A stretch of 64,000 nt of DNA from Candidatus Abyssobacteria bacterium SURF_5 (GTDB taxonomy: Bacteria > Abyssobacteria > SURF-5): positions 9,123-73,122 of the forward strand of contig QZKU01000145.1 in assembly GCA_003598085.1 (NCBI GenBank), in the 5' to 3' direction. Of this stretch, positions 18,117 to 50,522 are shown piece after piece. The translations under genes and the position numbers were made by a program. Within the stretch, counting starts at the first letter, position 1; every line of letters begins with the position of its first letter. Below the pieces are notes generated by a model, which was not told the origin of the DNA, ran no database searches, and was given only the letters and a program-made list of their open reading frames with translations.

Positions 18117-18242
18117 GGAACACGGGAGCGATTCCACTCCGGAATCTCTTGCCGTCGCCAATTCGTTCGTACGGAATTTCGCTTTTCTTGCACCGAAATG
18201 TTCAAACAAGACTTATTCGCTTCAACCAGTGCAGGGAGAAAC

Positions 18243-33314: not shown

Positions 33315-33455
33315 CTCAGTTCCTCCTCGCATACTTGGGTAACCCAAATGCTTGTTTAAAAGTTGCCGAGGCGTCCCTATATCAGCTTAACCTTCCCATC
33401 CAAAATTGAATAACGCCTCAGTCCGGCACATCGTTCTCCACTCACTCTCGTTCTG

Positions 33456-33471
33456 AGCATCAATAATGCCA
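33456..33471 (-). promoter_or_regulatory. Candidate sigma-54 promoter (minus strand TGGCAT-N5-GATGCT) upstream of the Gly-rich peptide gene
   Basis: The reverse complement of 33456-33471 is TGGCATTATTGATGCT. GG and GC are correctly spaced. The -12 element is ATGC rather than TTGC. Confidence 0.3.
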
Positions 33472-33865
33472 ACGAAAAAGACTCTCCGCTTGCCAAGTCG
33501 CAAGGCATTGACAACACGTGCTTTAAATCCTTGCCTGTTGAGCTTTTGTCAACGCCACGAGGAATGGGGATTGCAGCCGCGCAAAACAATGTCTCTTCTC
33601 AATTGCACTCTTGCAAAAGAATTGGGCGATCTCGCTCACAACGAACTGCGGGAATGTATCCGTGCGGATATGTAGAGGATATGGATTGGATGGTGCGGAA
33701 CAACGCGCTCGATATATTTTCCACCGCATTGGCGGCCGTATGATCATAAAACGAGCAGGATTGTCCATCGGAAACGTCTCTTCCGTTGATTCGGGTGGAG
33801 CGACCACCGATAGGGGAAGCCTCTATCGCGCGCGTGTTTCGCTGTCAGCGCAGGACGAATAAAGT

Positions 33866-34258
33866 TTAGGAAGCCTCCTCACGAGGACATGCCAGCGCTT
33901 CCTCTACCGCCGCGAGAAATTTATCCGGATCGACGGGCTTATCAAACACCGCGGCCGGTTTTCTGACGGCGAGGTCGCGCCCGGCAAGGCCGCTGACCAC
34001 GATGATGGGCGTATGCTTCAGCTCCTTGTCTCTGGATAACTTGCGCGCGAAATCCGTGCCGGTCCTCTTCGGCATCAGAAGGTCGAGAATCACAAGATCC
34101 GGCTTTTCGCGGCGAGCCGCTTCGTAGGCCTCCTCCACGTTGTACGTCGGAATCGGTTGGTAGCCGTTCTTTCGCAAGAGCGTCTCGAAGAAGACCACTA
34201 CGTGTTTCTCGTCATCCAGAATCAGAATCTTCTTCTTTTCTTGATCGCCGTTCTTCAT
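33866..34258 (-). CDS. Stand-alone response regulator receiver protein
   Basis: 130 aa. ILILDDEKH, LDLLMPKRTG, IIVVSG and K are all present. It is a close paralog of the receiver at 48096-48659. Confidence 0.85.
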   Translation of the reverse strand: MKNGDQEKKKILILDDEKHVVVFFETLLRKNGYQPIPTYNVEEAYEAARREKPDLVILDLLMPKRTGTDFARKLSRDKELKHTPIIVVSGLAGRDLAVRKPAAVFDKPVDPDKFLAAVEEALACPREEAS

Positions 34259-34414: not shown

Positions 34415-35404
34415 TCACACTTCTTTCAGAATATCGTTTATGTAGTACTTGGAGTACAGAGCGCTCACCGGATTGTTTGCGAGCGACTTGTCTTTTACGA
34501 ACAGGGTGGACATGGGCGCCTCGCTGTATCGCGCGAAAATGCAGTCGCATCCCACGCACAGTCCCACCGCCGCGTTGATATCCGTCTTCAGGCTGTTCAG
34601 TACGCGCGCCTGCCCGATCGGATTGCAGCACATCCCTTCGACGGCCGTTATGGCATCATGCTGCGTCTGCCCCCCGATTCTGCAGCACACAGTGCTCACC
34701 TTGAAAAAGCGCCGGAGCAGGCGCGTGAGTATCTCGACTTCCTGAAACATCTCCACGCAGAAAGCGATCCCGATATGTTTGTATTCCATGCCGAGGCAGT
34801 AATAAATAAACTCGGCAATGCGACACAGCTTCCTGTCTGTCTCCGCGGATATATCCGCAGTGACTTCCATCGAATGCCGAAGGTCAGAGTACTCGTCCGC
34901 CAAGAAAAGGTCCTTCGTGTCATTCGTGCAACTCTTGTTCTCCATGCACGGACGATCGATACATTCCACACAATCGATCCTGTCCTTCTTCTGCGCGGAT
35001 TCTTCTACCGGCTCCCTGTCGAGCAGGATCGCCCTCACGCTCGAAGCAAGCGCGCCGGCCTGGTTCGATAATCCGAACCCTGTCTCCAAACGGCCGCTGA
35101 GAAGGGCGGAAAGGATATCCTCTACTTCAGCCGCCACGTTGTAAATGACTCTTATCCCGAATGAATCCGCCCTCTCGATAAAATCCTCTTCTATTGCGCC
35201 GCAGATGAAGAGATCGATGCGCAGATTTACCAGTTGCGCGAGCCGTTCTTCATCACTCATGCCGCCTGTATCTATGATTTTCCTCGAGACCACTTCATTG
35301 TCTTTAATGCTGACGAGCAACATCTGGTCCGAATAGATACACCGGGGAGATACCCGCGTGCCGAATAAGGGGATTGCAACTCTCACAATCTGGTTCCTGT
35401 TCAT
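34415..35404 (-). CDS. Fusion protein: N-terminal NifX/NifB-C-like (dinitrogenase FeMo-cofactor-binding fold) domain plus C-terminal cysteine-rich domain (DUF1847-like)
   Basis: The N-terminal 110 aa (RVAIPLFGTRVSP...IDLFICGAIEEDFIERADSFGIRVI) match the NifX-family fold pattern. The C-terminal 200 aa carry at least 14 Cys in CxxC/CC/CxC clusters (CVECIDRPC, CCRIGGQ, MCCNPIGQ, GLCVGCDC). The DUF1847 label is from memory and is not verified. Confidence 0.7.
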   Translation of the reverse strand: MNRNQIVRVAIPLFGTRVSPRCIYSDQMLLVSIKDNEVVSRKIIDTGGMSDEERLAQLVNLRIDLFICGAIEEDFIERADSFGIRVIYNVAAEVEDILSALLSGRLETGFGLSNQAGALASSVRAILLDREPVEESAQKKDRIDCVECIDRPCMENKSCTNDTKDLFLADEYSDLRHSMEVTADISAETDRKLCRIAEFIYYCLGMEYKHIGIAFCVEMFQEVEILTRLLRRFFKVSTVCCRIGGQTQHDAITAVEGMCCNPIGQARVLNSLKTDINAAVGLCVGCDCIFARYSEAPMSTLFVKDKSLANNPVSALYSKYYINDILKEV

Positions 35405-35500
35405 TCCCTCAGCGCGCGAAGCGCATGTCCTCCAACCGAATGAATTGCCGGCGCACTCGCTCTTCTCTTGCCCGCCGGAATTCCTTCCAAAAACAATTCG

Positions 35501-35516
35501 GGCAATAACTGTGCCA
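35501..35516 (-). promoter_or_regulatory. Sigma-54 promoter (minus strand TGGCACAGTTATTGCC) for the NifX-like/receiver operon
   Basis: The reverse complement of 35501-35516 is TGGCAC-N5-TTGC with exact -24/-12 spacing. It lies about 95 nt upstream of the ATG at 35404. A TCCGC-N5-GCGGA inverted repeat at 35590-35604 lies about 75 nt further upstream and is a candidate enhancer site. Confidence 0.6.
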
Positions 35517-35807
35517 AACCCCCGCGCCGTTGTTTCCGTCGCGGACGGAGCGGCAACATGCCCCCTTTATCGACGTTCACTGCATCTTCTCCGCAAAAAG
35601 CGGAGCGCTCGGGGACGCCGCCGGTGTTACATCGGGTGCTGCATGCAGCGCTGCACCGCAATAGTTCTTGATCGCGCGCTGCCCGCCCGCCCGTAAGACT
35701 GCGGCAACCCGTAAGCCGCCTTCGAAAAATTTTCTTTAGCGGAGCGACAGCCAGTGTCGATGTATTCCGCGGCATGACCTGCCGCGGCCGTGCGGAGCAT
35801 TTGACGG

Positions 35808-35823
35808 TGGCATAGTTTTTGCC
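35808..35823 (+). promoter_or_regulatory. Sigma-54 promoter TGGCATAGTTTTTGCC for the Hdr-like operon
   Basis: TGGCAT-N5-TTGC with exact spacing. It lies about 100 nt upstream of the ATG at 35922, which has an AGGAGG ribosome-binding site. An 8-bp-arm inverted repeat CCGCGGCA-tgacc-TGCCGCGG sits 20 bp upstream at 35767-35787. A TGCATGCA/GCAGCGCTGC palindrome pair sits at 35640-35654. Confidence 0.6.
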
Positions 35824-35921
35824 CAACTAAAAGACGGTGGTGGCATCCGACGCCATGAGGAAACGGCGAGCGAGCATTGAGCCGCCCCGCAAATGGAGCT
35901 TGAGAACAGGAGGTTCTTCAT

Positions 35922-37061
35922 ATGGCTTCTGTTTCCCCGATGCTTGAAATAACCGACGCCATCATGGAGGTCGGCGGCAAGACTCTGAAGGTATGCATGC
36001 AGTGCGGCACGTGCACGGGAGTATGTCCCTGGAATCTGGTGGACGAATTCAGCCCGAGGCTCTTGATCCGGCTGGTCAGCCTGGGCATCGAAGGATATGA
36101 ACAGGACAGCCTGTGGAATTGCGTCACCTGCGCCACGTGCGTCACCCGGTGCCCCCGTGGAATCGATATCATCGATGTCATCAGATCGACGCGGAGCGTC
36201 ATGCTCGAGAGCGGAATCGTGCCGCCGGCCTATCGCGTGCCTCTCGCAAGCCTGCGCAATGAGGGGAATCCGTGGAGCTCTCCCCGCTCGGAACGCGCGG
36301 ATTGGGCGGCAAAATTGAATATTCCCGAGTTCTCCGAGGCGACCGAACATCTGCTTTTCGCCTGCTGCACCCATGCGTATGACGCCCGAAACAGGAAGGT
36401 CCTGAAGGAGACGGCCGAACTGCTTCTAAAAGGAGGCGCCTCCGTCGGCATTATCGGAACCGAGGAAAGCTGCTGCGGCGACCAGGCGCATAAATGCGGC
36501 GCTCTGGAAACATATACGGCGCTGCAGGAAGCCAATACCGAGCTTTTTGCCGCTCGCGGAGTCAGAAAGATCATCACCACGTCTCCTCATTGCCTGAATC
36601 TGTTCATCAAGGAGTATAAAGGCGAGTTCGATGCAGTCCATTACACGCAAGTCTTCGCGAAGCTCATCAAGGAGAAAAAGCTTGTTCCTGCAAAACCGGT
36701 CCCATTGAAGGTCGCCTATCACGATCCCTGCTACCTGGGCCGCCACAACAACATTTATGATGAGCCGAGAGACGTTCTCCGCAGCATTCCCGCACTGGAG
36801 TACGTGGAACTTCCCCGATGCAAGCAAAGGAGCCTGTGCTGCGGCGGAGGCGGAGGCGGCATCTGGTCTGAAATCGAAGTCGAAAAACGTTTCAGCGTGC
36901 TGCGCATACGGGAGGCGAAGGAAGCCGGCGCAAACGTGATAGCCACCGCGTGCCCGTTCTGCATGATCATGCTCGAGGACGGCCTGAAGGCTTCAGGCAT
37001 CGATGAGAGCGAGATGAAGATTCTCGATGTGAGCGAGTTACTCTATGAATCGGTCGAATAA
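35922..37061 (+). CDS. HdrD-like (Fe-S)-binding protein with two 4Fe-4S ferredoxin motifs and two CCG domains
   Basis: CMQCGTCTGVCP and CVTCATCVTRCP ferredoxin motifs. The CCG motifs are CCG...C and CCGGGGGG...CPFC. Confidence 0.85.
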   Translation: MASVSPMLEITDAIMEVGGKTLKVCMQCGTCTGVCPWNLVDEFSPRLLIRLVSLGIEGYEQDSLWNCVTCATCVTRCPRGIDIIDVIRSTRSVMLESGIVPPAYRVPLASLRNEGNPWSSPRSERADWAAKLNIPEFSEATEHLLFACCTHAYDARNRKVLKETAELLLKGGASVGIIGTEESCCGDQAHKCGALETYTALQEANTELFAARGVRKIITTSPHCLNLFIKEYKGEFDAVHYTQVFAKLIKEKKLVPAKPVPLKVAYHDPCYLGRHNNIYDEPRDVLRSIPALEYVELPRCKQRSLCCGGGGGGIWSEIEVEKRFSVLRIREAKEAGANVIATACPFCMIMLEDGLKASGIDESEMKILDVSELLYESVE

Positions 37062-37076
37062 AACGGCGGGGAAATC

Positions 37077-40000
37077 ATGAGCAGAGAATTTCCATTAAGA
37101 GAGGAACGAATCGGTTTCTATATCTGTCATTGCGGTATCAATATCGCATTCAAGGTCAGATGCGCTGAAGTAGCCGAGTATATCGGAACATTGCCCGGCG
37201 TCGCCGTCTCGCGCGATTACCTGTTCATGTGCTCTGATCCCGGGCAGGAGATTATCGAGAAAGACATCAGGGAGCTCGACCTGACGCGCGTGGTGGTCGC
37301 TTCCTGCTCCCCCCGCATGCACGAGCATACCTTCAGGGCGGCATGCGCGCGAGCCGGCCTCAACCCCTTCCGGGCATTTCATCATGTCTGCGTCCGGGAG
37401 CATGTATCCTGGGTCACTCTCGACGAAGACCAGGCCACCGAGAAAGCAAAACTGCTCGCTCGCGCCGGCATCAGGCGCGTGCGATATCAATCCGACCTCT
37501 TTCCCAAAACCTTCCCCGTCAATCCCAACACGCTCGTGGTCGGCGGCGGAATCACCGGAATGCAAGCGTCGCTTGACGTCGCAAAGGCAGGTTACAAGGT
37601 GTATCTCGTCGAGCGGCAGGCCACTATCGGCGGCCACATGCTCCAATACGACAAGACCTTCCCGACCATGGACTGCGCCGCCTGCATCGGTACGCCCAAG
37701 ATGGTCGCCGTCGGCCAGAATCCGAACATCGAAATTCTCTCCCTGAGCGAGGTCGAAGAGATCAGCGGTTTCGTCGGCAACTTCAAGGTCAAAGTGAGAA
37801 AGCACGCCCGCTACGTGAAAGCTGACAAGTGCACAGGCTGCGCCGAATGCACCAAGTATTGTCCCATCATCGTGCCGAATGAATGGGATGTGAACACGAA
37901 GCAGCGCAACGCCGTGTACCGGCCGTTCCCGCAAGCGGTCCCCATCACGTTCGCCATCGATAAAAAGGACAGGGGCCCCTGCGTCCAGACGTGTCCCGCC
38001 GGCACCAATGTGCAAGGCTACGTCACGATGATCCGAGAGGGCAAATACAAGGAAGCCCTCAAGATAATCATGGAAAACCTCCCGCTCCCGGGCGTGCTCG
38101 GCAGAGTCTGTCCGGCCCCATGCGAAAAAGAGTGCAGGAGAGGCGAAGTCGATGAGCCGGTTTCAATCCGGAACCTGAAGCGCTTCGCCGCCGACCAGGC
38201 GGATTGGGAAACGCTCGAACTGCCCGAAATCGATATGAAGCCGCCTGAGGAAAAGGTGGCGATCGTGGGATCGGGCCCGGCAGGCCTTGCCTGCGCGTAT
38301 TTCCTCGCCCGAAAAGGATATCATCCGACCGTCTTCGAGGCCTTGCCGGAGGTCGGCGGCATGCTGCGGGCCGGCATCCCCGATTACCGCCTGCCGCCCG
38401 AGGTGCTCAATCGCGAAGTGAATTATATCCGCCGCCTGGGAGTCGAGATCAAGACCAACGCTCCCATCGGCGGAGAAACAACAATCGAGAGCCTCCTCGC
38501 CAATGGCTTCAAGGCAGTGTTCTTGTCGACCGGCGCCCACAACGAATTCAAACTCGGTGTCGAGGGCGAAGACGCCGCAGGCGTGCTGAAAGGAATCTCG
38601 TTCCTGCGCGACGTGAATTTCTGCGCGAATGGAGAGGTGGGCAAGAAGGCCGTCGTTATCGGCGGCGGCGCGGTCGCCATGGACGTGGCCCGCGTCGCTC
38701 GGCGCAAGGGCGCCTCGGAAGTGCACGTCTATTGCCTTGAGAAGCGACACGAAATGCCCGCGTGGGTCGAGGAGATCGAAGCCGCCGAGGCCGAAGGAAT
38801 CGAGATTCATAATGCATGGGGCGTCAAACGGATATTGACGAACGACGCGAAAGTCAAGGGCATCGAGTTCAAGCGATGTACCGCGGTATTTGACGAAAAC
38901 AAGAGATTCAGTCCGCAGTACGATGATTCTGAAACCATAACCGAAAACTGCAATACGGTTCTGGTTGCAATCGGCCAGAGACCTGATCTGTCCTGCCTCA
39001 ACGGCTCGAAGGATGTCCAGCTTACCCGAAGAGGCCTTATTGCCGCCGATCCGGTCACCTTGCAGACCAGCAAGCCCGGCGTTTTTGCGGGCGGCGAAAT
39101 GTATTCCGGGCCCTCGCTTGTGGTGCAGGCGGTGGCGACCGGCAAGGAGGCCGCCATTTCCATCGAGCGCTACTTGAAGAGCGAAGACCTTGTTCTCGAC
39201 AGGCCCGAGCGTCCAAAGGGCGAGAACTGGGCCCCCATCCCTGAAGACGTCCAGAAGGCCGCTCGTGCGAAAATGCCCGAACTCGCGCCCGCTGACAGAG
39301 TGAACGGCTTCGTCGAAGTCGAGACGGGCTTCACCGAGGAGCAAGCCAGAGCCGAAGCCGCCCGCTGTCTCTCGTGCGGCGTGTGCTGCGAGTGCAAGCA
39401 GTGCGTGCCCGCTTGCGAGGCGAAGGCAATCGACCACGATGCCAAGGACGAAATCGTCACGCTCGACGTGGGCTCAATTATCCTGGCCACCGGCTTCGAC
39501 ATCATGGACCCGACGCCGATGCAGGAGTACGGCTACGGCAAATACCGCAATGTTCTGACAAGCTTGGAATTCGAGCGCCTCTCCAACGCCACGGGTCCCA
39601 CCTCCGGCAAAATCCTTCTCCGGGACCCGAACGACAGGTGGAACCACACCCGGCCCCCCAAGAGCGTCGCATTCCTGCACTGCGTCGGCAGCCGCGACAA
39701 AAACTATCACGACTATTGCTCGCGAACCTGCTGTATGTACGCGCTGAAAATGGCGCACCTGGTTAAGGACAAGTGCGGCCATGACACGCAGGTGTTCAAT
39801 TTCTACATCGATATGCGGTGCTTCGGAAAAGGACAGGAGGAGTTTTACCGCCGCATCCAGGATGAGGGCGTGAGGATGGTCCGGGGCAAGGCCGTCGAGG
39901 TGACCGATAAGGCGGAGGACCCGAGCGAAGAAGGAATGCTCATCGTACGGGCGGAAGACTCGCTGATCGGCAAAATGCTGAGGGTGCCGGTCGAGATGGT

Positions 40001-40508
40001 GGTTCTGTGCACGGCCATGGAACCGCGGCCGGACGCCCTGGAGGTGGCCAGAATCTTCGGCCTATCACTCAGCGCCGACGGCTTCTTCATGGAAGAACAT
40101 CCGAAGCTCGAGCCGGTCTCGACCCCAACCTCCGGCGTCTTCCTCGCCGGCGCTTGCCAGGGTCCGAAGGACATAACTGATTCAGTCGCGCAGGCAAAAG
40201 CGGCCGCCAGCGAAGCGCAGGCGCTTTCCACCCTGGGGAAAGTGATCGTCCCGCCGATGATAAGCCATATCGACGAAGACATCTGCATCGGCTGTCAAGT
40301 CTGCATCGGGTTGTGCCCGTACTCTGCGATCGAATTCGACGAATTCAAAAAGGTTAGCGTGGTGAATGAGGCTGTTTGTAAAGGATGCGGGAGCTGCGCC
40401 GCCTACTGCCCGAGCGGCGCCGCCGACATACGCCATTTCACCCAAAAACAGATTTTCGGTGAAATCGAGGGAATCCTCGTAGGAGCCAAGGAGACACGCG
40501 ATGAGTAA
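37077..40508 (+). CDS. Large HdrA-like flavoprotein fused to a GltD/NfnB-like NAD(P)H-binding FAD domain (HdrL-like)
   Basis: 1143 aa. The N-terminal HdrA FAD fold is VVGGGITGMQASLDVAKAGYKVYLVE, with several 4Fe-4S motifs. An internal glutamate-synthase-small-subunit-like region reads VAIVGSGPAGLACAYFLARKGYHPTVFEALPEVGGML. The C-terminal HdrA ferredoxin part follows. Confidence 0.85.
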   Translation: MSREFPLREERIGFYICHCGINIAFKVRCAEVAEYIGTLPGVAVSRDYLFMCSDPGQEIIEKDIRELDLTRVVVASCSPRMHEHTFRAACARAGLNPFRAFHHVCVREHVSWVTLDEDQATEKAKLLARAGIRRVRYQSDLFPKTFPVNPNTLVVGGGITGMQASLDVAKAGYKVYLVERQATIGGHMLQYDKTFPTMDCAACIGTPKMVAVGQNPNIEILSLSEVEEISGFVGNFKVKVRKHARYVKADKCTGCAECTKYCPIIVPNEWDVNTKQRNAVYRPFPQAVPITFAIDKKDRGPCVQTCPAGTNVQGYVTMIREGKYKEALKIIMENLPLPGVLGRVCPAPCEKECRRGEVDEPVSIRNLKRFAADQADWETLELPEIDMKPPEEKVAIVGSGPAGLACAYFLARKGYHPTVFEALPEVGGMLRAGIPDYRLPPEVLNREVNYIRRLGVEIKTNAPIGGETTIESLLANGFKAVFLSTGAHNEFKLGVEGEDAAGVLKGISFLRDVNFCANGEVGKKAVVIGGGAVAMDVARVARRKGASEVHVYCLEKRHEMPAWVEEIEAAEAEGIEIHNAWGVKRILTNDAKVKGIEFKRCTAVFDENKRFSPQYDDSETITENCNTVLVAIGQRPDLSCLNGSKDVQLTRRGLIAADPVTLQTSKPGVFAGGEMYSGPSLVVQAVATGKEAAISIERYLKSEDLVLDRPERPKGENWAPIPEDVQKAARAKMPELAPADRVNGFVEVETGFTEEQARAEAARCLSCGVCCECKQCVPACEAKAIDHDAKDEIVTLDVGSIILATGFDIMDPTPMQEYGYGKYRNVLTSLEFERLSNATGPTSGKILLRDPNDRWNHTRPPKSVAFLHCVGSRDKNYHDYCSRTCCMYALKMAHLVKDKCGHDTQVFNFYIDMRCFGKGQEEFYRRIQDEGVRMVRGKAVEVTDKAEDPSEEGMLIVRAEDSLIGKMLRVPVEMVVLCTAMEPRPDALEVARIFGLSLSADGFFMEEHPKLEPVSTPTSGVFLAGACQGPKDITDSVAQAKAAASEAQALSTLGKVIVPPMISHIDEDICIGCQVCIGLCPYSAIEFDEFKKVSVVNEAVCKGCGSCAAYCPSGAADIRHFTQKQIFGEIEGILVGAKETRDE

Positions 40509-40929
40509 GGAGTTCGAACCCACAATTGTTGCTTTCCTCTGCAACTGGTGCACGTTCACCGCTGCGGACCTCGCCGGCACGTCGCGCCTCAGTTATCCCG
40601 AGAACGTCAAGATAATCCGCATGATGTGCAGCGGCATGGTCGATCCGCTCTATGTTCTCAAAGCCTTCATGGAGGGGGCGGACGGCGTTTTCATCGGAGG
40701 ATGCTGGCCCGGCGACTGCCATTATATCAACGGCAACCTGAAGGCGCGCCGGCGAGTGGCGTTGCTTACGGAAATTCTGAAGCAGTTCGGAATCGAGGAG
40801 GACAGGTTCTGGCTGCGCTGGGTTGCCGCCAGCGACGGCGTCATGTTCCAGGAGTTCTCCAAACAGATGACTGAAAAGCTCCGACAAATGGGGCCGAGCC
40901 CGCTCAGTGTCAATCAAACAATCGCGTGA
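40501..40929 (+). CDS. MvhD-like (methyl-viologen-reducing hydrogenase delta subunit family) protein
   Basis: 142 aa with the MvhD-type Cys pattern (CNWC...C..GC...C). It overlaps the HdrL stop by 8 nt. Confidence 0.8.
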   Translation: MSKEFEPTIVAFLCNWCTFTAADLAGTSRLSYPENVKIIRMMCSGMVDPLYVLKAFMEGADGVFIGGCWPGDCHYINGNLKARRRVALLTEILKQFGIEEDRFWLRWVAASDGVMFQEFSKQMTEKLRQMGPSPLSVNQTIA

Positions 40930-40951
40930 GGATTCGCTGAGGAGAATTGAG

Positions 40952-42088
40952 ATGACGGAATACAGCAAACTGGTTGCTCAAGATGGTTCGATAAACAAAT
41001 CGCTGGCCTCTTTTTTCAGGACCATGCTCGAGAAGAATGTCGTGGACGCCGTCCTCGTGCCGGCCCACCAGAATCCAAAGGGAGTCATGCAGACGCTGAT
41101 TACCGCCCCGGAAGCGCTCGATGCCGTTGACCCCTTCGCGCCTGTAGCGCCGACGAATTCGGCAAGACTCGTGACCCGGCTCACGAACGTCCCCTCCGGG
41201 AGGCCGGTGGCGGTGGTGATGCGGTCGTGCGAGATACGGGCGCTCCTCGAACTGGTCAAACTCAAGCAGGCGAACGTCGACGACCTCCTTTTGATCGGAA
41301 TTGACTGTCTCGGCAGATACGAAAATGCCGATTACTTGAAATACGAACAAGGCGGCGCCACGACCGAGGACTTCCTCAAAGCCGCTTGCGGAGACAAAGG
41401 AACCAAAAGCGCCGACGGGTTCGACGTTGCCGTCGCCTGCCGGATCTGCGAATATCCGGCGGCAGACAATGCGGATGTCCGCCTCTGCGTCATTGGCGCC
41501 TCTCCGGGCGAGGTCTTTGTCGAGTGGGCCACGGAGAAAGGGCTGAATGCACGCAAGGCGATGGGACTCGAAGCGGAAGCAGGCCCGGCCGGCCGCGACG
41601 CGGCGGTGCAACAGATCAAGAAAACGAGAACCGCGCAACGAGACAAGGTGTTCTCCGATATGTATGAGCACGTCGGGAGCATGGAGAAGCTGCGGGATCA
41701 TCTGGCTGGTTGCATAAATTGCTATAACTGCCGCGCGGCCTGCCCCGTCTGTTATTGCAAAGAATGCGTCTTCGTCACCGATACCTTCCGCCACCCCGGC
41801 GACCAATACCTCTCATGGGGCGATAAGCGCGGCTTCATGAAGATGCCAACCGAGACAGTGCTGTTCCACCTGACTCGCATGACTCACATGAGCGCGCTGT
41901 GCGTGGGCTGCGGCCAGTGCTCGAGCGCGTGCCCGAATGATATCCATGTGACCGAGCTTTTCAGGTCGGTCGCCAACAGGACTCAGGCCAGATTCGACTA
42001 CCATCCGGGCAGATCGCTCGATGAGCCTCAGCCGCTGGCGGTGTTCTATGCGGAAGAGCTTACGGAAGTAACCGGACAAGTTAAGTAG
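40952..42088 (+). CDS. FrhB/FdhB-family flavin/Fe-S protein (coenzyme F420 hydrogenase beta-subunit-like)
   Basis: A C-terminal 4Fe-4S dicluster (CINCYNCRAACP, CVGCGQCSSACP) follows an N-terminal FrhB-like fold. The start was taken at the ATG at 40952, which has a GAGGAG ribosome-binding site; the track start at 40907 overlaps mvhD. Confidence 0.7.
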   Translation: MTEYSKLVAQDGSINKSLASFFRTMLEKNVVDAVLVPAHQNPKGVMQTLITAPEALDAVDPFAPVAPTNSARLVTRLTNVPSGRPVAVVMRSCEIRALLELVKLKQANVDDLLLIGIDCLGRYENADYLKYEQGGATTEDFLKAACGDKGTKSADGFDVAVACRICEYPAADNADVRLCVIGASPGEVFVEWATEKGLNARKAMGLEAEAGPAGRDAAVQQIKKTRTAQRDKVFSDMYEHVGSMEKLRDHLAGCINCYNCRAACPVCYCKECVFVTDTFRHPGDQYLSWGDKRGFMKMPTETVLFHLTRMTHMSALCVGCGQCSSACPNDIHVTELFRSVANRTQARFDYHPGRSLDEPQPLAVFYAEELTEVTGQVK

Positions 42089-42097
42089 GAGAAACCA

Positions 42098-45000
42098 ATG
42101 ACTGAGGAAAACGCTGTCGGAACAGTGCTCGTCGTGGGCGCCGGCATCGCCGGAATCAAATCCGCCCTCGAATTGGCCGAGACGGGTTATAAAGTTATCC
42201 TTACCGACAATTCGCCTTCTGTCGGCGGCATCCTGCAAAAGCTCGACCATCAGTTCCCAACCGACCACTGCGGAATGTGCAGGATGCTGCCGCTGGTCGG
42301 ACGCGAACACGCGTCGCAGCACTGCATGCGCAAAAGCCTGTTCCATGACAACATCGAGATTCTTCCGTTCACCGAGATCACATCCGTTAAAGGAGACGCA
42401 GGCGCCTACACAGTGGAGCTGCTCAGACGGGCGCGGCATGTCAATACCGATATCTGCAACGGACTCGGCAAGTGCATCGACGTGTGCCCGGTGGAAGCGC
42501 CCGACGAATTCAATCAGGGCCTTACCCGGCGCAAAGCCATCTACAAGCCTGTCCCTCATAATGTCCCCCAAATGCTGCTCATAGATATGCAAGCCTGCAC
42601 CAGGTGCGGCGAGTGCGTGAAGGCGTGTCCGGTGAACGCGATCGACCTGGAGGCGCAGGACGAAGCGAGCCTGGTCGAGGTGAATGCAATAATACTCGCG
42701 GCCGGCGCGACTCTCTATGATCCCGCCACAGATGATGACGCGAAAGCATATGCGGTCTCGCCCGACGTCGTCAGCTCGTTGGCCTTCGAGCGCATCTTGA
42801 GCGGATCGGGCCTCTACGACGGGACGATCCGCCGCCCGTCGGATGGCAAGCCCGCCAAACGCATTGCCTGGATTCAATGCGTCGGCTCCCGCAACCGCAG
42901 GAAGGGCCGAGATTATTGCTCGTCCATTTGCTGCATGTTCGCGCTCAAAGAGGCGGTGCTCGCCCATGAAAAGGGAGGGCCGGACACCGAGACAACCATC
43001 TTTTACATGGATATGCGCACCTTCGGGAAGGAGTTTTATCAGTACCGCGAGCGGGCCGAACGCGAATACGGCGTGCGCCTTGTTCGCTGCCGCGTTCAGA
43101 GCGTGTTGCGGGAGGCCGACGGCTCGCTGCTGGTCCGATACCTCGATCAGAAAACCGGAGAATTTGTCGAAGACTCCTATGACATGGTGGTGCTTTCGAC
43201 CGGTCAGGCGCCTTTCGAAGACCATCGCAGGCTCGCCGAATTGCTCGGCTTGGATCGCGCGCCCTCGGGACTGCTCCCCCTGCTCGACTTCGAGAAAGTG
43301 AAGCTGGTGAAGCCGGGAATCTTTATCTGCGGCTCGCTGATGGGGCTCACCGACATCAGCGAGGCCATCACCAGCGGGATCGCAGCGGCAGGTGAAACAT
43401 CGAAAATGCTTCTTGCCTCCGGGATCAAAAGGCTGGAAGACGAGCCGGCTCCGGAACGGCCGGTGGACAAACAGGCTCCGCTTGTATCGGTCGTTCTGTG
43501 CAGTTGTAAAGGAGTCAAGGCGCCCGAAGGGCTCGACCTCGAGCCGCTGATCTCGACCATCAAGAAATATCCCGGAGTGGGTGAAGCTCATCTCGTGGAG
43601 GCGCTGTGCCGGGAAGAGGGAGAGCAGGAGCTTAAGGAAATCCTCGAGCAGACAAAATGCAACCGGCTCATCATCGGAGCCTGCCTCCCGTACGTGTACC
43701 GGCAGCGGTTCAGGAAGCTGGCTCAAACCGCAGGTTTCAATCCGGCCCTGGTGGAGATATTTGATCTGTTGAGCGCGGCGAGACATGGCCTGCCGGAGAC
43801 AAACGGGACCGATTGGGTGCAGTTGGCTTTAGAGGAAATGAGCGCGCTGCTCGAAAAACTTAAGCTGGCGCAGGCGCTTCACTCTCATGCTCTGCCCATC
43901 CATCAGACGGCGCTCGTGGTCGGCGGCGGCGTCGCAGGTATGCGAGCCGCCCTCTCCCTTGCCGATCGAGGGATCAAAACACACCTGGTGGAAAAATCCG
44001 ACCGGCTCGGCGGGCATGCGGCCAATGGATTGCATTACACGATTGACGGATTAGACCCCGCCGGCCTGGTCTCCGAACTGAACCGGAAAATCGAGGAGCA
44101 GCGGAACCTGACAGTCCATTTGAACAGCGAGATTATTGGCTCCAAGGGTGCGCTCGGACGCTTCACTACCGAAATCCGCAGCAGCGACAGCAACCAAAAA
44201 CTCGAGCACGGCGCGGTGATCATAGCCACCGGCGGTCATGAAGCCAAAACCACTGAATACGCCTACGGCCAGAGCGAGCGCGTTGTGACCCAGGTTGAAC
44301 TGGAGGAGCGACTGACAGCCGGGGAACTCGATGCGGCAACTCTGGAGAACGTGGTGATGATTCAATGCGTCGGCTCGCGGGAGAAAGGCGCGCGCGAGTA
44401 CTGCAGCCGCATCTGCTGCGCGGCCGCATTGAAGAACGCATTCAAGATCCTTGAGAAGAATCCTGCGGCCCGCATCTACATCCTCAATCGGGACATGATG
44501 ACCTACGGCTTCCTCGAGAAATACTATACCAGGGCGCGAGGCGAAGGGATCATGTTCATCAATTATGAACTCGATCAGAAGCCGCAGGTGGAGATCGTTG
44601 ACGACAAGCCGCTCGTGAAATTCACCGATCCGGTCCTCCAGATGCCGCTCGAGGTGACCGCCGATCTGCTGGCGCTCGCCACCGGCATACAGCCCCCTTC
44701 ATCCAACGAACAGCTTGCCCAAAGCTTCGGCTTGCCGCTCACGTCGGAAGGCTTCTTTCAGGAGGCCGATTCGAAATGGCGGCCGGTCGAATTCAAGAAG
44801 CTGGGCGTCTTTCTCGCGGGCACGGCGCACAGCCCGCTGCCACTGAACGAATCGCTCATGCAGGCTGAGGCCGCGGCGCAGAAAGCCTACGCCCATATCT
44901 CCCGACGCACGATTCAAACGGCACGAGCCGTATCCAAAGTGCACGACGCCATCTGCGCCCGCTGCCAAATATGCGTGGAAATCTGCCCGTACAATGCGCG

Positions 45001-45199
45001 CGCGTTTGATCCTGAACAGAACTGCATCGTCGTCGACTCGGCAGCATGCCAGGCCTGCGGCCTGTGCGCGGTCGCTTGCCCGAACAAAGCCGCGGAAGTG
45101 CAGGGCTGGAGCGAGAAACAGACGCTGGCGATAATCGACGCGAAGCTGAGAAGCACCGGCCATTCGCGGCGGCGGGCCGGCAAGGAGGTAACAACGTGA
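42098..45199 (+). CDS. Tandem HdrA-like fusion (two HdrA FAD modules separated by an MvhD-like Cys insert)
   Basis: 1033 aa. The first HdrA start reads VLVVGAGIAGIKSALELAETGYKVIL. The second module, around residue 605, reads ALVVGGGVAGMRAALSLADRGIKTHLVE. Several CxxCxxCxxxCP motifs are present. The internal LCSCKGVKAP...IIGACLPYVY segment is MvhD/FlpD-like. Confidence 0.85.
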   Translation: MTEENAVGTVLVVGAGIAGIKSALELAETGYKVILTDNSPSVGGILQKLDHQFPTDHCGMCRMLPLVGREHASQHCMRKSLFHDNIEILPFTEITSVKGDAGAYTVELLRRARHVNTDICNGLGKCIDVCPVEAPDEFNQGLTRRKAIYKPVPHNVPQMLLIDMQACTRCGECVKACPVNAIDLEAQDEASLVEVNAIILAAGATLYDPATDDDAKAYAVSPDVVSSLAFERILSGSGLYDGTIRRPSDGKPAKRIAWIQCVGSRNRRKGRDYCSSICCMFALKEAVLAHEKGGPDTETTIFYMDMRTFGKEFYQYRERAEREYGVRLVRCRVQSVLREADGSLLVRYLDQKTGEFVEDSYDMVVLSTGQAPFEDHRRLAELLGLDRAPSGLLPLLDFEKVKLVKPGIFICGSLMGLTDISEAITSGIAAAGETSKMLLASGIKRLEDEPAPERPVDKQAPLVSVVLCSCKGVKAPEGLDLEPLISTIKKYPGVGEAHLVEALCREEGEQELKEILEQTKCNRLIIGACLPYVYRQRFRKLAQTAGFNPALVEIFDLLSAARHGLPETNGTDWVQLALEEMSALLEKLKLAQALHSHALPIHQTALVVGGGVAGMRAALSLADRGIKTHLVEKSDRLGGHAANGLHYTIDGLDPAGLVSELNRKIEEQRNLTVHLNSEIIGSKGALGRFTTEIRSSDSNQKLEHGAVIIATGGHEAKTTEYAYGQSERVVTQVELEERLTAGELDAATLENVVMIQCVGSREKGAREYCSRICCAAALKNAFKILEKNPAARIYILNRDMMTYGFLEKYYTRARGEGIMFINYELDQKPQVEIVDDKPLVKFTDPVLQMPLEVTADLLALATGIQPPSSNEQLAQSFGLPLTSEGFFQEADSKWRPVEFKKLGVFLAGTAHSPLPLNESLMQAEAAAQKAYAHISRRTIQTARAVSKVHDAICARCQICVEICPYNARAFDPEQNCIVVDSAACQACGLCAVACPNKAAEVQGWSEKQTLAIIDAKLRSTGHSRRRAGKEVTT

Positions 45200-45705
45200 C
45201 TGATCTTGCGACAGCGAATAAGGACCTGTGGCGGGACGTCTTCGACAGCGAAGACCTGCGCTATTGCTTCAATTGCAGCACCTGCATCTCCGGCTGTCCC
45301 GCATCCAATGCGAACCCGCCGCTTCTGATCAGGAGCCTTGTTCGCATGGTAATCCTCGGGCTGGAAGACGAATTGCTCGAGCAGGACACGCCGTGGACCT
45401 GTGTCACCTGTTCGCGGTGCGAGGAGTTCTGTCCCATGGATGTGAAACCGTTTGAGCTGTGCCTCGCGGTGCGCCGGTGGCAAAGCCGCAACGACGAGAC
45501 GCGCATCCCGCCGTCGATCGTCGAGATTTACAGCCGGGGCTACACGCAGGCGGTGGAACGAAACACTGAACAGAGAAAATCACTCGGTTTGCCCGAAAAA
45601 CTGCCGGTAATCACCGAATATCCGGAACTGCTGGAAAAGTTCCGGCAAATGCTCATGCAAACCAAGGTGATCAGCGATAACGCCTATATGTTCGAAGGGG
45701 TGTGA
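45196..45705 (+). CDS. HdrC-like 4Fe-4S dicluster subunit
   Basis: CFNCSTCISGCP and CVTCSRCEEFCP. The start was taken at the GTG at 45196, which has an AAGGAGG ribosome-binding site and overlaps the HdrA stop as GTGA; the track ORF at 45046 overlaps the upstream gene by 150 nt. Confidence 0.75.
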   Translation: MTDLATANKDLWRDVFDSEDLRYCFNCSTCISGCPASNANPPLLIRSLVRMVILGLEDELLEQDTPWTCVTCSRCEEFCPMDVKPFELCLAVRRWQSRNDETRIPPSIVEIYSRGYTQAVERNTEQRKSLGLPEKLPVITEYPELLEKFRQMLMQTKVISDNAYMFEGV

Positions 45706-45706
45706 A

Positions 45707-46585
45707 ATGGAATTCGGACTCTTTCTCGGATGTAATACCCCCGCAATCAGGCCGGACGTCGAGCGCGCAATCCGGCTCACCATGCCGAAGCTCGGAGTCG
45801 ATCTGATAGACCTCGAGGGCTACGTCTGCTGCCCGGCTTTCGGCACGTTTCCCTCAGCCGATGAAGACTCCCACCTGGCGGTCAGCGGTTGGAATCTCTC
45901 GCTCGCCGAGCAGAAGGGGCTCGATCTGCTGGTCGAATGCGGCTCGTGCTACAGCTCATTGCGGATGGGGAGGGAACACATCCTCCATGATGAAAAGAAA
46001 AGGGCGCGCGTGAACGAACTGCTGCAGCCGGTGGGGAGGACGGTCGAGGGCAAAACGAAGGTGCGCCATATCAGCGACGTTCTCTACAACGACGTAGGCC
46101 TGGAGAAGATCGCCGCCAGCATCGACAAGAAACTCGAAGGATTGCACGCCGTCGTGCAATACCCCTGCCACACTCTGTTTCCCAGCGAACACGTGGGTTT
46201 TGACAGCCCGCCGGCGCGGCCCCATATCATGCGTGACCTCGTCGAGGCGCTGGGAGCGAAAGTCGACGCCTTCAGCCGCGAGTACCAATGCTGCGGCGGC
46301 GCTGGCGGCTTCCATGGAACTTCTTCCGCTGAAGCGCGCGCTTTTGCGCAAAGCAAATTCGACGCCATTAAAAAAGAGACGCAGGCGGATTTTATTGTCG
46401 TCTCCTGCATTACCTGCCTCATGTTCCTCGATAATGTTCAAAAAGAGTTGAATGAAGGCAACGGTAAATACAATCTTCCCGTTTTTGATTACAACCAGAT
46501 ACTGGCGCTCTGCATGGGCTTCGATCCGAAACAGGTGGCTCCCATCTGCAGCGTTCCAAGAGACACAATCATTAGCAGGCTCTGA
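45707..46585 (+). CDS. HdrB-like CCG-domain subunit
   Basis: Two CCG-type Cys-rich motifs (VCCPAFGTF and CCGGAGGFHG...CITCLM). It starts 2 nt after hdrC. Confidence 0.85.
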   Translation: MEFGLFLGCNTPAIRPDVERAIRLTMPKLGVDLIDLEGYVCCPAFGTFPSADEDSHLAVSGWNLSLAEQKGLDLLVECGSCYSSLRMGREHILHDEKKRARVNELLQPVGRTVEGKTKVRHISDVLYNDVGLEKIAASIDKKLEGLHAVVQYPCHTLFPSEHVGFDSPPARPHIMRDLVEALGAKVDAFSREYQCCGGAGGFHGTSSAEARAFAQSKFDAIKKETQADFIVVSCITCLMFLDNVQKELNEGNGKYNLPVFDYNQILALCMGFDPKQVAPICSVPRDTIISRL

Positions 46586-50198: not shown

Positions 50199-50214
50199 TG
50201 CATCGATCGTGCCA
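50199..50214 (-). promoter_or_regulatory. Sigma-54 promoter (minus strand TGGCACGATCGATGCA) upstream of the bEBP gene
   Basis: The reverse complement of 50199-50214 gives TGGCACG-N4-ATGC with exact spacing. It lies about 50 nt upstream of the ATG at 50151, which has a GGTGAGGAG ribosome-binding site. Confidence 0.5.
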
Positions 50215-50522
50215 TGTTGGACCAACAATGGACAGCCTCCTCTAACTCATTCGTAATCAATACGATACGGATGACAACAGCACAGCTCAGTAACAAGTCC
50301 GCAACCCGCAAATAGTAGAAATGCAATAGTCGGTGTAACACGGCTGTTGCATCCCTGCAGCATTCTGCTCCAGCGGAAGGCATTGCTTCCCTCCGACCTG
50401 CCCGACGGAAACCTTGTTTCGCGGTCGACTTTCAGCGGGAAATCAGAGAGGACGAGAAACGGCAACTGGAGGGTTTGCATCCTGCAGAAAAGCACGCAAC
50501 GGCTGAATATTCGACCACCAGC

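What the first reader, a model, noticed from the sequence alone, without database searches (positions are those of the whole stretch)
35405..35921. Divergent sigma-54 promoters with palindromic candidate enhancer sites in one 517-bp intergenic region
The leftward promoter is at 35501-35516. The rightward promoter TGGCATAGTTTTTGCC is at 35808-35823. Both have exact -24/-12 geometry.

Between them lie a perfect 8-bp-arm inverted repeat CCGCGGCA-N5-TGCCGCGG (35767-35787), overlapping palindromes TGCATGCA/GCAGCGCTGC (35640-35654), and TCCGC-N5-GCGGA (35590-35604).

The only bEBP in the window (48772-50151) has a PAS sensor with a CxxxxCxxxC motif and its own sigma-54 promoter (50199-50214, TGGCACG-N4-ATGC). 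One redox-sensing activator may control itself, the Hdr-like operon and the NifX-like operon. The candidate promoter upstream of the Gly-rich peptide (33456-33471) shares the unusual GATGC -12 element with the activator's own promoter.
Basis: partly seen in the sequence, partly recalled or inferred. Interest (0 to 1): 0.55.

Follow-up and report, generated by a model that had tools for sequence, protein, structure and literature searches.

The report
Redox-regulated divergent sigma-54 promoter pair
Two back-to-back sigma-54 promoters share one conserved central activator-binding site and are most likely switched on by a nearby OrpR-type iron-sulfur redox sensor; the design is known from Desulfovibrio, but here it drives different genes in uncultured bacteria.

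Summary
Both sigma-54 promoters are exact consensus matches: TGGCACAGTTATTGC at 35516..35502 (-) and TGGCATAGTTTTTGC at 35808-35822 (+). Both are conserved in every close orthologous locus. A divergent pair of this kind is found in 31 of 43 distant loci.

Only one of the three proposed palindromes survives comparison. It is the central one, GCTGCATGCAGC / TGCAGCGCTGCA at 35638-35655. It sits at the same offset from the promoters (within about 2 nt) as a GTTGC-N2-GCAAC palindrome in the orthologues. It is the only GYTGC-N2-GCARC in the 64 kb. CCGCGGCA-N5-TGCCGCGG and TCCGC-N5-GCGGA are not conserved, and the former is no longer than chance gives.

The window's single bEBP carries the signatures published for Desulfovibrio OrpR, a [4Fe-4S] PAS redox sensor. 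These are the C-x-D-x6-C-x3-C motif, a GAFTDA loop and a PAS-AAA+-HTH_8 architecture. Close relatives of this bEBP lie directly beside NifX-DUF1847 genes in most of the 81 metagenome and MAG loci that carry such a gene. Its own sigma-54 promoter and an upstream GYTGC-N6-GCARC site are conserved too.

The best reading is a new variant of the OrpR system. One bidirectional enhancer serves a NifX-DUF1847 operon and an Hdr-like operon, and the activator appears to regulate itself positively. Nothing has been tested experimentally.

The parts
35502..35516 (-). Leftward sigma-54 promoter TGGCACAGTTATTGC. GG is at 35515-35514 and GC at 35503-35502. The inferred transcription start is near 35490. It drives the NifX-DUF1847 gene.
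   Evidence: Conserved as GGCAYAGTTATTGC-type sites in L001, L002, L003, L082, L083, L084, L086, L087 and L088.
35808..35822 (+). Rightward sigma-54 promoter TGGCATAGTTTTTGC. The inferred transcription start is near 35834. It drives the Hdr-like operon.
   Evidence: Conserved as TGGCAYAGTTYTTGC in all close loci.
35623..35663 (.). Conserved central island GTGTTACATCGGGTGCTGCATGCAGCGCTGCACCGCAATAG, the proposed shared upstream activating sequence (UAS). Its core is two overlapping perfect 12-bp palindromes at 35638-35649 and 35644-35655. These are flanked by the half-site-like TGTTAC and GCAAT.
   Evidence: It is the best conserved block outside the promoters. It lies at the same offset (157-161 nt) as GTTGC-N2-GCAAC in L003, L082, L084, L086 and L087. 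It is the only GYTGC-N2-GCARC in the window.
35595..35599 (.). A5 tract inside TCCGC-N5-GCGGA, about 80 nt upstream of the leftward -24 element. It is a possible bend between the UAS and the promoter.
   Evidence: Sequence. No IHF consensus with 1 mismatch or fewer in the region. Inference only.
35725..35737 (.). A5T4-rich tract AAAAATTTTCTTT, about 78 nt upstream of the rightward -24 element. It is a possible bend or IHF-like site.
   Evidence: Sequence. A GAAAAA or T-run is retained at this place in L001 and L003. Inference only.
35767..35787 (.). CCGCGGCA-N5-TGCCGCGG inverted repeat. It is probably not part of the system.
   Evidence: Present. Not conserved. 15% of shuffles match its length.
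34415..35404 (-). Fusion protein with a NifX/orange-protein-like domain (PF02579, weak match) and a DUF1847 domain. The start is probably GTG 35386.
   Evidence: Pfam. 431 homologues, several with PF02579 on record. tblastn with the L087 NifX-like protein starts at 35386.
33866..34258 (-). Stand-alone receiver-domain protein, probably co-transcribed with the DUF1847 gene.
   Evidence: Pfam. The same gene follows DUF1847 in L001, L084 and L086.
35922..46585 (+). Hdr-like operon: HdrD-like CCG protein, HdrA-GltD fusion, MvhD, FrhB-like protein, second HdrA, HdrC, HdrB. A PAS histidine kinase (46619-48085) and a receiver protein (48096-48659) follow.
   Evidence: Pfam and NCBIfam. The same operon is divergent from DUF1847 in L001, L002, L003, L014, L084 and L086.
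48772..50151 (-). OrpR-type enhancer-binding protein with PAS (C55, D57, C64, C68), AAA+ (GAFTDA loop) and HTH_8 domains.
   Evidence: Signatures as published for DVU2106 (PMC8359166, PMC4641369).
50200..50214 (-). The bEBP's own sigma-54 promoter TGGCACGATCGATGC.
   Evidence: TGGCAY-N5-[A/G]TGC is found at the same place in L082, L083, L087 and L088.
50346..50361 (.). GCTGCAGGGATGCAAC (read on the - strand). This is a GYTGC-N6-GCARC site about 135 nt upstream of the bEBP promoter.
   Evidence: It is the only such site in the window. GTTGC-N6-GCAAC occurs at the equivalent place in L083 and L088, with a one-mismatch version (GTTGC-N6-GCAGG) in L082.
33457..33471 (-). Candidate sigma-54 promoter TGGCATTATTGATGC before the Gly-rich zinc-ribbon peptide. 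The ORF is 33114-33347; the likely start is ATG 33314.
   Evidence: The same GATGC -12 element occurs in the orp-cluster promoter of L087.
33602..33616 (-). TTGCAAGAGTGCAAT, a candidate UAS about 139 nt upstream of the Gly-rich peptide promoter.
   Evidence: It has the same TTGCAA-N3-TGCAAY form as upstream of the bEBP genes in L083, L087 and L088. It could not be tested by conservation.

Best explanation
The spacer between the NifX-DUF1847 gene and the Hdr-like operon is a bidirectional sigma-54 control region.

**Proposed mechanism**
- Sigma-54 RNA polymerase sits in closed complexes at two outward-facing -24/-12 promoters about 290 bp apart.
- Between them lies one array of GTTGC/GCAAC-type half-sites (35623-63). 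Its core is two overlapping 12-bp palindromes. It is centred about 155 nt from the inferred left transcription start and about 187 nt from the right one.
- This array binds the window's only enhancer-binding protein, encoded at 48772-50151.
- That protein belongs to the OrpR type. Its PAS domain has three cysteines and an acidic residue that in Desulfovibrio OrpR hold a redox-sensitive [4Fe-4S] cluster.
- By analogy, at low redox potential the protein is active, loops to either promoter and opens both. A/T tracts midway may assist the looping, since there is no clear IHF site. Oxidation would switch both operons off while the protein stays bound.
- The activator also appears to drive its own gene from a sigma-54 promoter with a related upstream site. 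It probably drives the Gly-rich zinc-ribbon peptide gene too.

**Shown here:** the sequences, their conservation, the gene linkage and the protein signatures.

**Inferred:** binding, looping, the redox signal and the direction of regulation.
For: **Promoters**
- Both are exact consensus matches, 3 in the window against 0.33 expected.
- They are conserved in 9 close loci.
- In 43 distant upstream regions, 34 have a forward sigma-54 promoter, 36 a reverse one and 31 both. Shuffles give 0.7% and 1.6%.

**UAS**
- GTTGC-N2-GCAAC with 0-1 mismatch is the best hit between the promoters in 10 of 14 loci (9 of them reached by at most 11 of 500 shuffles; L005 by 26).
- It lies at offset 157-161 nt in L003, L082, L084, L086 and L087. 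The window's GCTGCATGCAGC lies at offset 159, with a dyad-symmetric T>C / A>G change.
- It is the only GYTGC-N2-GCARC in the 64 kb.
- In distant loci TGTTGCA is found in 45 of 49 upstream regions, with 115 copies.

**Regulator**
- It is the only bEBP in the window.
- Its architecture is PAS-AAA+-HTH_8.
- The motif C-x-[DE]-x6-C-x3-C is present in 56 of 57 related bEBPs and GAFTDA in 55 of 57. These match OrpR's C52, C61, C65 and D/E54 (PMC8359166) and its GAFTDA loop (PMC4641369).
- A bEBP 56-80% identical lies beside the DUF1847 gene in roughly 50 loci.
- The recognition-helix region ELGMHRxTLWRK is kept across the clade.

**Autoregulation**
- A sigma-54 promoter and GTTGC-type sites upstream of the bEBP gene recur in the window, L082, L083, L087 and L088.
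Against: - No experiment exists on this system.
- A matrix built from the distant loci does not single out the window's site, because the window's half-sites are degenerate (GCTGC/GCAGC). On its own, a 2-mismatch match to GTTGC-N2-GCAAC is reached by 127 of 500 shuffles. The case therefore rests on position and conservation.
- The half-site geometry varies between clades and sites: N2, N6, and overlapping TGTTGCAACA. The true recognition unit is unresolved.
- L001 and L002 have weaker versions.
- The bEBP gene is 13 kb away here, and only 64 kb of the genome is visible. Another bEBP elsewhere cannot be excluded.
- The orp-linked paralogue in L087 seems to use a similar motif, so the motif alone does not identify which paralogue binds.
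Confidence: 0.7

Rival explanations
1. The promoters are real but are activated by a different enhancer-binding protein encoded outside the 64-kb window. One example would be a response-regulator bEBP that receives signal from the PAS histidine kinase at 46619-48085. On this view the OrpR-like protein regulates only itself or other genes.
For: - Only 64 kb of the genome is visible.
- The Hdr-like operon ends with a PAS kinase and a receiver protein that has no output domain, and the DUF1847 gene is followed by another lone receiver.
- In Desulfovibrio vulgaris the hdr-flx genes are listed under a two-component bEBP, DVU2394 (PMC4641369).
- In L084 the bEBP gene is about 10 kb from the promoters.
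Against: - The OrpR-like bEBP, not a response-regulator bEBP, is the gene that stays next to DUF1847 in roughly 50 loci across three different partner operons.
- The same motif family is found between the divergent promoters and upstream of the bEBP's own promoter.
Confidence: 0.15
2. The enhancer is one of the other palindromes the reader listed. CCGCGGCA-N5-TGCCGCGG at 35767-35787 would serve the right promoter, and TCCGC-N5-GCGGA at 35590-35604 the left. Each promoter would then have its own site, as in the Desulfovibrio orp region.
For: - Both repeats exist.
- In DvH each orp promoter has its own OrpR palindrome, at -131 and -88 (PMC3897727).
Against: - Neither repeat is conserved in L001, L002, L003 or the other close loci.
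- An 8-bp-arm repeat arises in 15% of shuffles.
- The 35767-35787 repeat is centred only about 32 nt upstream of the -24 element, which is too close for a typical activator site.
- TCCGC-N5-GCGGA has only 5-bp arms.
Confidence: 0.05
3. The central palindromes bind a separate dimeric repressor or another sigma-70-type regulator and not the bEBP. Alternatively they are a chance feature of G+C-rich DNA.
For: - TGCA-rich palindromes are short.
- On its own, the window's site is not statistically exceptional as a match to the family consensus (127 of 500 shuffles).
Against: - Its position is conserved within about 2 nt across loci that are otherwise unalignable.
- The family-wide enrichment is extreme: TGTTGCA is in 45 of 49 regions.
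- It sits 130-190 nt upstream of sigma-54 promoters, and a related site recurs upstream of the bEBP gene.
- No sigma-70-like promoter was found in the spacer.
Confidence: 0.07

Closest known systems
The OrpR (DVU2106) / orp system of Desulfovibrio vulgaris Hildenborough. Two divergent sigma-54 operons are co-activated by a PAS-[4Fe-4S] redox-sensing enhancer-binding protein with the help of IHF (PMC8359166, PMC3897727; Fievet 2011, cited therein).
   Same: - One-component PAS-AAA+-HTH activator with the same Cys triad spacing (C-x8-C-x3-C) and an acidic residue two positions after the first Cys.
- The same unusual GAFTDA loop.
- Two divergently transcribed sigma-54 operons.
- Palindromic upstream sites 90-190 nt from the starts.
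- Targets that include a NifX/orange-protein-family domain and, in the window, a Gly-rich zinc-ribbon peptide also found in an orp cluster (L087).
- A canonical orp cluster with a 50%-identical paralogue lies next to the DUF1847 locus in L087.
   Different: - The binding motif differs. GTTGC/GCAAC repeats replace GGGCGYRTTTTGCGCCC, which is absent from the relevant regions.
- One shared site array lies between back-to-back promoters, instead of one site per promoter on either side of the regulator gene.
- The regulator gene is 13 kb away. It has a sigma-54 promoter, implying positive feedback, where DvH has a sigma-70 promoter with negative feedback.
- The targets are a NifX-DUF1847 fusion and an Hdr-like (elsewhere DsrMKJOP-like or molybdopterin-oxidoreductase) energy-metabolism operon. 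They are not the Orp ATPase complex, and no ParA/Mrp ATPase is present in the window.
- There is no IHF consensus.
- The hosts are uncultured lineages outside the Deltaproteobacteria (names).
Shared or bidirectional enhancers at divergent sigma-54 promoters, as known from textbook cases such as Klebsiella nifHDK / nifJ and Rhizobium dctA / dctBD (own knowledge, not checked here).
   Same: One upstream activator-binding region lies between two outward-facing -24/-12 promoters and is used through DNA looping in either direction.
   Different: The activator family, the signal (Fe-S redox sensing) and the target genes are all different.
DVU2394-dependent control of the hdr-flx genes in D. vulgaris (PMC4641369).
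   Same: An Hdr-type electron-transfer operon is placed under sigma-54 control.
   Different: DVU2394 is a two-component response-regulator bEBP with a GSFTGA loop. Here the associated bEBP is a one-component OrpR type.

Membership tests
Sigma-54 (-24/-12) promoter | GG and GC elements exactly 10 nt apart within a TGGCAC-N5-TTGC consensus. | tested here: met
   TGGCACAGTTATTGC and TGGCATAGTTTTTGC. The strict pattern occurs 3 times against 0.33 expected.
Sigma-54 (-24/-12) promoter | Correct orientation and a plausible distance to a downstream gene, conserved in orthologues. | tested here: met
   The promoters lie about 86-104 nt and 88 nt before the start codons. They are conserved in 9 close loci, and as a pair in 31 of 43 distant loci.
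Sigma-54 (-24/-12) promoter | A cognate enhancer-binding protein with a sigma-54 interaction domain is present. | tested here: met
   PF00158, E = 1.8e-65. It is the only one in the window.
Sigma-54 (-24/-12) promoter | rpoN is present in the genome, and transcription starts about 12 nt after the GC element. | not testable with these tools
   Only 64 kb of the genome is available, and there are no transcript data.
OrpR-type Fe-S PAS enhancer-binding protein | One-component architecture of PAS, AAA+ and HTH domains. | tested here: met
   PAS_9, Sigma54_activat, AAA_lid_14 and HTH_8.
OrpR-type Fe-S PAS enhancer-binding protein | Three conserved PAS cysteines spaced as in OrpR (C52, C61, C65), plus D/E two residues after the first. 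| tested here: met
   C55, D57, C64 and C68 in the window protein. The motif is present in 56 of 57 related bEBPs. The reference spacing is from PMC8359166.
OrpR-type Fe-S PAS enhancer-binding protein | GAFTDA variant of the GAFTGA loop. | tested here: met
   GAFTDA in the window protein and in 55 of 57 relatives. DVU2106 is listed with GAFTDA in PMC4641369.
OrpR-type Fe-S PAS enhancer-binding protein | Direct sequence similarity to, or orthology with, DVU2106. | not tested
   The DVU2106 sequence was not obtainable: there is no supplement text and the Fievet 2011 paper is not held. As a proxy, the window protein is 50% identical to the bEBP next to a canonical orp cluster in L087.
OrpR-type Fe-S PAS enhancer-binding protein | Binds a redox-sensitive [4Fe-4S] cluster. 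| not testable with these tools
   This needs anaerobic purification followed by UV-visible and EPR spectroscopy.
OrpR/orp regulon as described in D. vulgaris | The 17-bp palindrome GGGCGYRTTTTGCGCCC lies upstream of the targets. | tested here: not met
   There are only two 3-mismatch hits in the window, at 9957 and 26993. This is the chance level, and neither is near the promoters.
OrpR/orp regulon as described in D. vulgaris | The targets are the orp genes: orange-protein/NifX-like proteins and Mrp/ParA-type Fe-S ATPases. | tested here: inconclusive
   A NifX-like domain is present but fused to DUF1847. A Gly-rich peptide is shared with the L087 orp cluster. There is no ParA/Mrp ATPase in the window, and the other target is an Hdr-like operon.
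OrpR/orp regulon as described in D. vulgaris | The regulator gene lies between the two operons and has a sigma-70 promoter under negative autoregulation. | tested here: not met
   The gene is 13 kb away and is preceded by a conserved sigma-54 promoter with an upstream GYTGC-N6-GCARC site.
OrpR/orp regulon as described in D. vulgaris | IHF sites lie between the UAS and the promoters. | tested here: not met
   There is no WATCARNNNNTTR match with 1 mismatch or fewer in 35405-35921. A/T tracts occupy the midpoints instead.

The most novel reading that the evidence does not exclude
The NifX-DUF1847 protein may be a dedicated cofactor carrier or maturation factor for the unusual (non-cubane) iron-sulfur clusters of CCG-domain proteins. 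It would be made together with its client complex under one Fe-S-based redox switch.

The basis is that across three unrelated partner operons the divergent operon always contains a CCG-domain protein. The three types are Hdr-like, DsrMKJOP-like, and molybdopterin oxidoreductase with cytochromes. The NifX-DUF1847 gene and the OrpR-like activator stay constant throughout.

Nothing here tests the biochemical role.
Probability: 0.12. Interest if true: 0.75.

Novelty: new variant of a known kind. Interest (0 to 1): 0.45.

Why it matters
OrpR is so far the only enhancer-binding protein shown to sense redox through an Fe-S cluster in a PAS domain. It was described as a regulator of only the two orp operons and as restricted to Deltaproteobacteria (PMC8359166).

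The locus studied here points to a sister branch of that family. This branch is widespread in uncultured lineages; source names include Abyssobacteria, Poribacteria, Zixibacteria, Planctomycetota and Acidobacteriota. It is tied to a gene of unknown function (NifX-DUF1847, for which the held paper library has no paper) and to energy-conserving Hdr-, Dsr- or molybdoenzyme-type complexes.

The analysis gives three concrete things:
- a testable binding motif;
- a compact bidirectional enhancer design;
- a functional lead for DUF1847.

It remains a variation on a known regulatory scheme, not a new principle.

Tried and rejected
- **Matrix scan.** A position weight matrix of the TTGCAACA half-site, built from 116 sites in distant loci, was used to scan the window. 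It did not rank the 35623-35663 island highly, because the window's half-sites are GCTGC/GCAGC. The top cluster fell inside the bEBP coding region. I therefore relied on positional conservation and on exact-pattern counts.
- **IHF.** A consensus scan found no site in the spacer, and the window-wide count was at chance.
- **Rfam.** A scan of the whole window found nothing at gathering thresholds, so there is no known leader or riboswitch.
- **Sigma-70.** The promoter scan found none in the spacer.
- **DvH OrpR palindrome.** Absent from the relevant regions.
- **Reference genomes.** The scan of genome contigs returned only one locus. The metagenome scan and contig look-ups supplied the rest.
- **Gly-rich peptide promoter.** Conservation could not be tested in L001, because that locus lacks the peptide gene.
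- **DVU2106 sequence.** The OrpR paper has no supplement text and Fievet 2011 is not held. No direct alignment with DVU2106 was possible.
- **Long ORFs across the spacer.** ORFs 35401-35826 (-) and 35358-35696 (+) were not pursued. They overlap the conserved promoters and the UAS, and the similar gene calls in L082 and L088 have no Pfam hit.
Full report
**Observation**

The region 35405-35921 separates a leftward gene (34415-35404) from a rightward gene (35922-37061).
- The leftward promoter reads TGGCACAGTTATTGC on the minus strand (35516..35502).
- The rightward promoter reads TGGCATAGTTTTTGC (35808-35822).
- The strict pattern TGGCAY-N5-TTGC occurs three times in the 64 kb against 0.33 expected, and two of the three are these.
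- The two promoters are almost the same 17-mer in inverted orientation (I1).
- The palindromes CCGCGGCA-N5-TGCCGCGG, TCCGC-N5-GCGGA and the central TGCA-rich ones are all present.

**Genes**

- The left gene encodes a fusion of a NifX/orange-protein-like domain and DUF1847. The NifX-like match to PF02579 is weak here (E = 0.0018) but is on record for several homologues. The DUF1847 match has E = 1e-31.
- A NifX-like protein from an orp cluster aligns to its N-terminus starting at 35386. Homologues begin MRVAIP. The true start is therefore probably GTG 35386.
- The left gene is followed by a lone receiver protein (33866-34258).
- The right gene opens a tightly packed Hdr-like operon: an HdrD-like CCG protein, an HdrA-GltD fusion, MvhD, an FrhB-like protein, a second HdrA, HdrC and HdrB. 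A PAS kinase and a receiver protein follow.
- The only enhancer-binding protein in the window is encoded at 48772-50151.

**Conservation of the promoters**

- One reference-genome locus (L001, 71% identical protein) and 80 metagenome loci carry relatives of the DUF1847 protein. Seven more were fetched by contig look-up.
- All close loci keep both promoters almost letter for letter. These are L001, L002, L003, L082, L083, L084, L086, L087 and L088.
- Among 43 dereplicated distant upstream regions, 34 have a forward sigma-54 promoter just before the DUF1847 gene, 36 have a divergent one, and 31 have both. Shuffles give 0.7% and 1.6%.
- The divergent pair is therefore a trait of the whole gene family.

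**Which palindrome matters**

Alignment of the close loci shows three conserved islands: the two promoters and a central block.
- When the sequences are anchored, without gaps, on the partner-operon promoter, a 12-bp palindrome GTTGC-N2-GCAAC appears with 0-1 mismatch. It lies at offset 157-161 nt in L003, L082, L084, L086 and L087, and at 137-165 nt in L083, L088 and L008. In most of these loci none or very few of 500 shuffles reach it.
- The window has GCTGCATGCAGC at offset 159. It differs by a T>C change and the mirror-image A>G change, so the dyad is kept.
- It overlaps a second perfect 12-mer, TGCAGCGCTGCA. Two such palindromes arise in 2.3% of shuffles.
- GYTGC-N2-GCARC occurs once in the whole window, and that occurrence is here.
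- The island extends to TGTTAC and GCAAT half-site-like flanks (35623-35663) that are also conserved.
- In the distant loci the same place holds three to five copies of TGTTGCAACA-type sites. TGTTGCA is present in 45 of 49 regions, with 115 copies.
- By contrast, CCGCGGCA-N5-TGCCGCGG is not conserved. It is matched in length by 15% of shuffles and is centred only about 32 nt from the -24 element.
- TCCGC-N5-GCGGA is likewise not conserved.

**The activator**

- The window's bEBP has PAS, AAA+ and HTH_8 domains. It has the loop GAFTDA and the PAS motif C55-F-D57-x6-C64-x3-C68.
- The literature describes exactly these features for OrpR (DVU2106) of Desulfovibrio vulgaris. Conserved C52, C61 and C65 plus D/E54 hold a redox-sensitive [4Fe-4S] cluster (PMC8359166). 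GAFTDA is listed for DVU2106 among the entries seen in that paper's table of the 37 EBPs (PMC4641369).
- OrpR activates two divergent sigma-54 orp operons together with IHF. It stays DNA-bound when oxidised but stops activating (PMC8359166, PMC3897727).
- In the loci collected here, 56 of 57 distinct related bEBPs keep the Cys/acid motif and 55 keep GAFTDA.

**Linkage**

- A bEBP 56-80% identical to the window's lies directly beside the DUF1847 gene in roughly 50 loci. This holds although the DUF1847 proteins there are only 35-46% identical to the window's.
- The operon on the other side of the promoter pair changes. It is Hdr-like in the window, L001-L003, L014, L084 and L086. It is DsrK/M/O/P-like with a cytochrome in most distant loci. 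It is a molybdopterin oxidoreductase with cytochromes and a CCG protein in L082, L083, L087 and L088.
- The constant partners are the DUF1847 gene, the OrpR-like bEBP, the promoter pair and the motif.
- L087 also carries, next door, a canonical orp-type cluster. It encodes NifX-like proteins, ParA/Fer4 ATPases, DUF134 and a Gly-rich zinc-ribbon peptide, and has its own bEBP. That bEBP is 50% identical to the window's and has the same signatures.
- The DUF1847-linked proteins are therefore best seen as a paralogous branch of the OrpR type.

**Autoregulation and the Gly-rich peptide**

- Upstream of the bEBP gene, a sigma-54 promoter with an unusual [A/G]TGC -12 element sits at the same place in the window, L082, L083, L087 and L088.
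- GTTGC-N6-GCAAC and TTGCAA-N3-TGCAAC sites lie 130-150 nt further upstream.
- The window's copy, GCTGCAGGGATGCAAC (50361..50346), is the only GYTGC-N6-GCARC in the 64 kb.
- This points to positive feedback. DvH orpR, in contrast, has a sigma-70 promoter with negative feedback (PMC3897727).
- The promoter before the Gly-rich peptide (33471..33457) has TTGCAAGAGTGCAAT about 139 nt upstream.
- The orp promoter in L087 has the same GATGC -12 element and a GTTGC-N6-GCAAT site.
- L001 lacks the peptide gene, so this promoter could not be checked by conservation. It is the weakest member of the proposed regulon.

**Mechanism and caveats**

The most likely working is as follows. One array of activator sites is centred about 155 nt from the left start and about 187 nt from the right start. 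It loads the OrpR-like protein, which contacts sigma-54 polymerase at either promoter by looping.
- No IHF consensus is present. A/T tracts lie about 80 nt from each -24 element (35595-35599 and 35725-35737).
- The redox logic (active when reduced) is borrowed from OrpR and is not shown here.
- The exact recognition unit is unclear, because half-site spacing differs between sites and clades.
- A matrix built from distant loci does not pick out the window's degenerate site.
- A second bEBP outside the window cannot be ruled out.
- The DvH OrpR palindrome is absent, so this is not simply another copy of the orp regulon.

**Verdict**

This is a real, conserved, bidirectional sigma-54 control region. 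It works like the OrpR/orp system but has a different motif, layout, feedback and targets, so it is a new variant of a known kind. Interest is moderate. The design is familiar, but the analysis extends a recently described Fe-S redox activator family to many uncultured phyla and to energy-metabolism operons. It also gives the first functional context for DUF1847, which returned no hit in the held paper library.

Noticed in passing
window 49658-49730: Five GTTGCA/TGCAAC-type matrix hits fall within 70 nt inside the bEBP coding region, in the linker between the PAS and AAA+ domains. This was the densest cluster in the window. It could be a codon effect or an internal operator.
   Followed up: partly
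window 2322-2336 (-) and 18055-18069 (+): There are two further sigma-54-like sites. TGGCATCTAATTTGC lies about 300 nt upstream of an M50 peptidase gene (1092-2021). TGGCATCAAATATGC lies about 140 nt upstream of a metallo-beta-lactamase-fold gene (18198-19133). No GTTGC-type site was looked for there.
   Followed up: no
L087 8733-14995: A MAG labelled Poribacteria carries a canonical orp-like cluster right beside the DUF1847 locus. The cluster has three NifX-like genes, two ParA/Fer4 ATPases, DUF134 and a Gly-rich zinc-ribbon peptide. It also has a second OrpR-type bEBP. Its sigma-54 promoter TGGCACGTTTGATGC has a GTTGC-N6-GCAAT site about 140 nt upstream, so the two paralogues may share or overlap in DNA specificity.
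   Followed up: partly
window 46619-48085: The PAS histidine kinase at the end of the Hdr-like operon has two PAS domains, each with a C-x10-C-x2-C motif (CYEVFRGRKTPCLSC and CYDIYQHRSEPCEDC). This may be a second cysteine-based sensor in the same locus.
   Followed up: no
window 33114-33347 (-); L087 about 11790-11990 (-): The Gly-rich peptide ends in a CxxC...CxxC zinc ribbon, and its likely start is ATG 33314, which follows a GAGGAGG ribosome-binding site. A peptide of the same design (GPGG-CVC-NCG...HE-GVPC...CPKCG) is encoded inside the orp cluster of L087. There is no Pfam family above threshold.
   Followed up: partly
L082 11008-11568; L020 11046-11570; L083, L087, L088: A conserved protein of 174-189 aa with no Pfam match follows the DUF1847 gene in the loci without an Hdr operon. 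In the Hdr-type loci, including the window, a lone receiver protein takes that place.
   Followed up: no
window 35839-35860: GGTGGCAT is repeated 33 nt downstream of the rightward promoter, and CCGAYGCCATG is conserved in the 5' leader of the Hdr-like operon between the window and L001. It has no -12 partner, so it is not a second promoter. A possible role in the leader is unknown.
   Followed up: no
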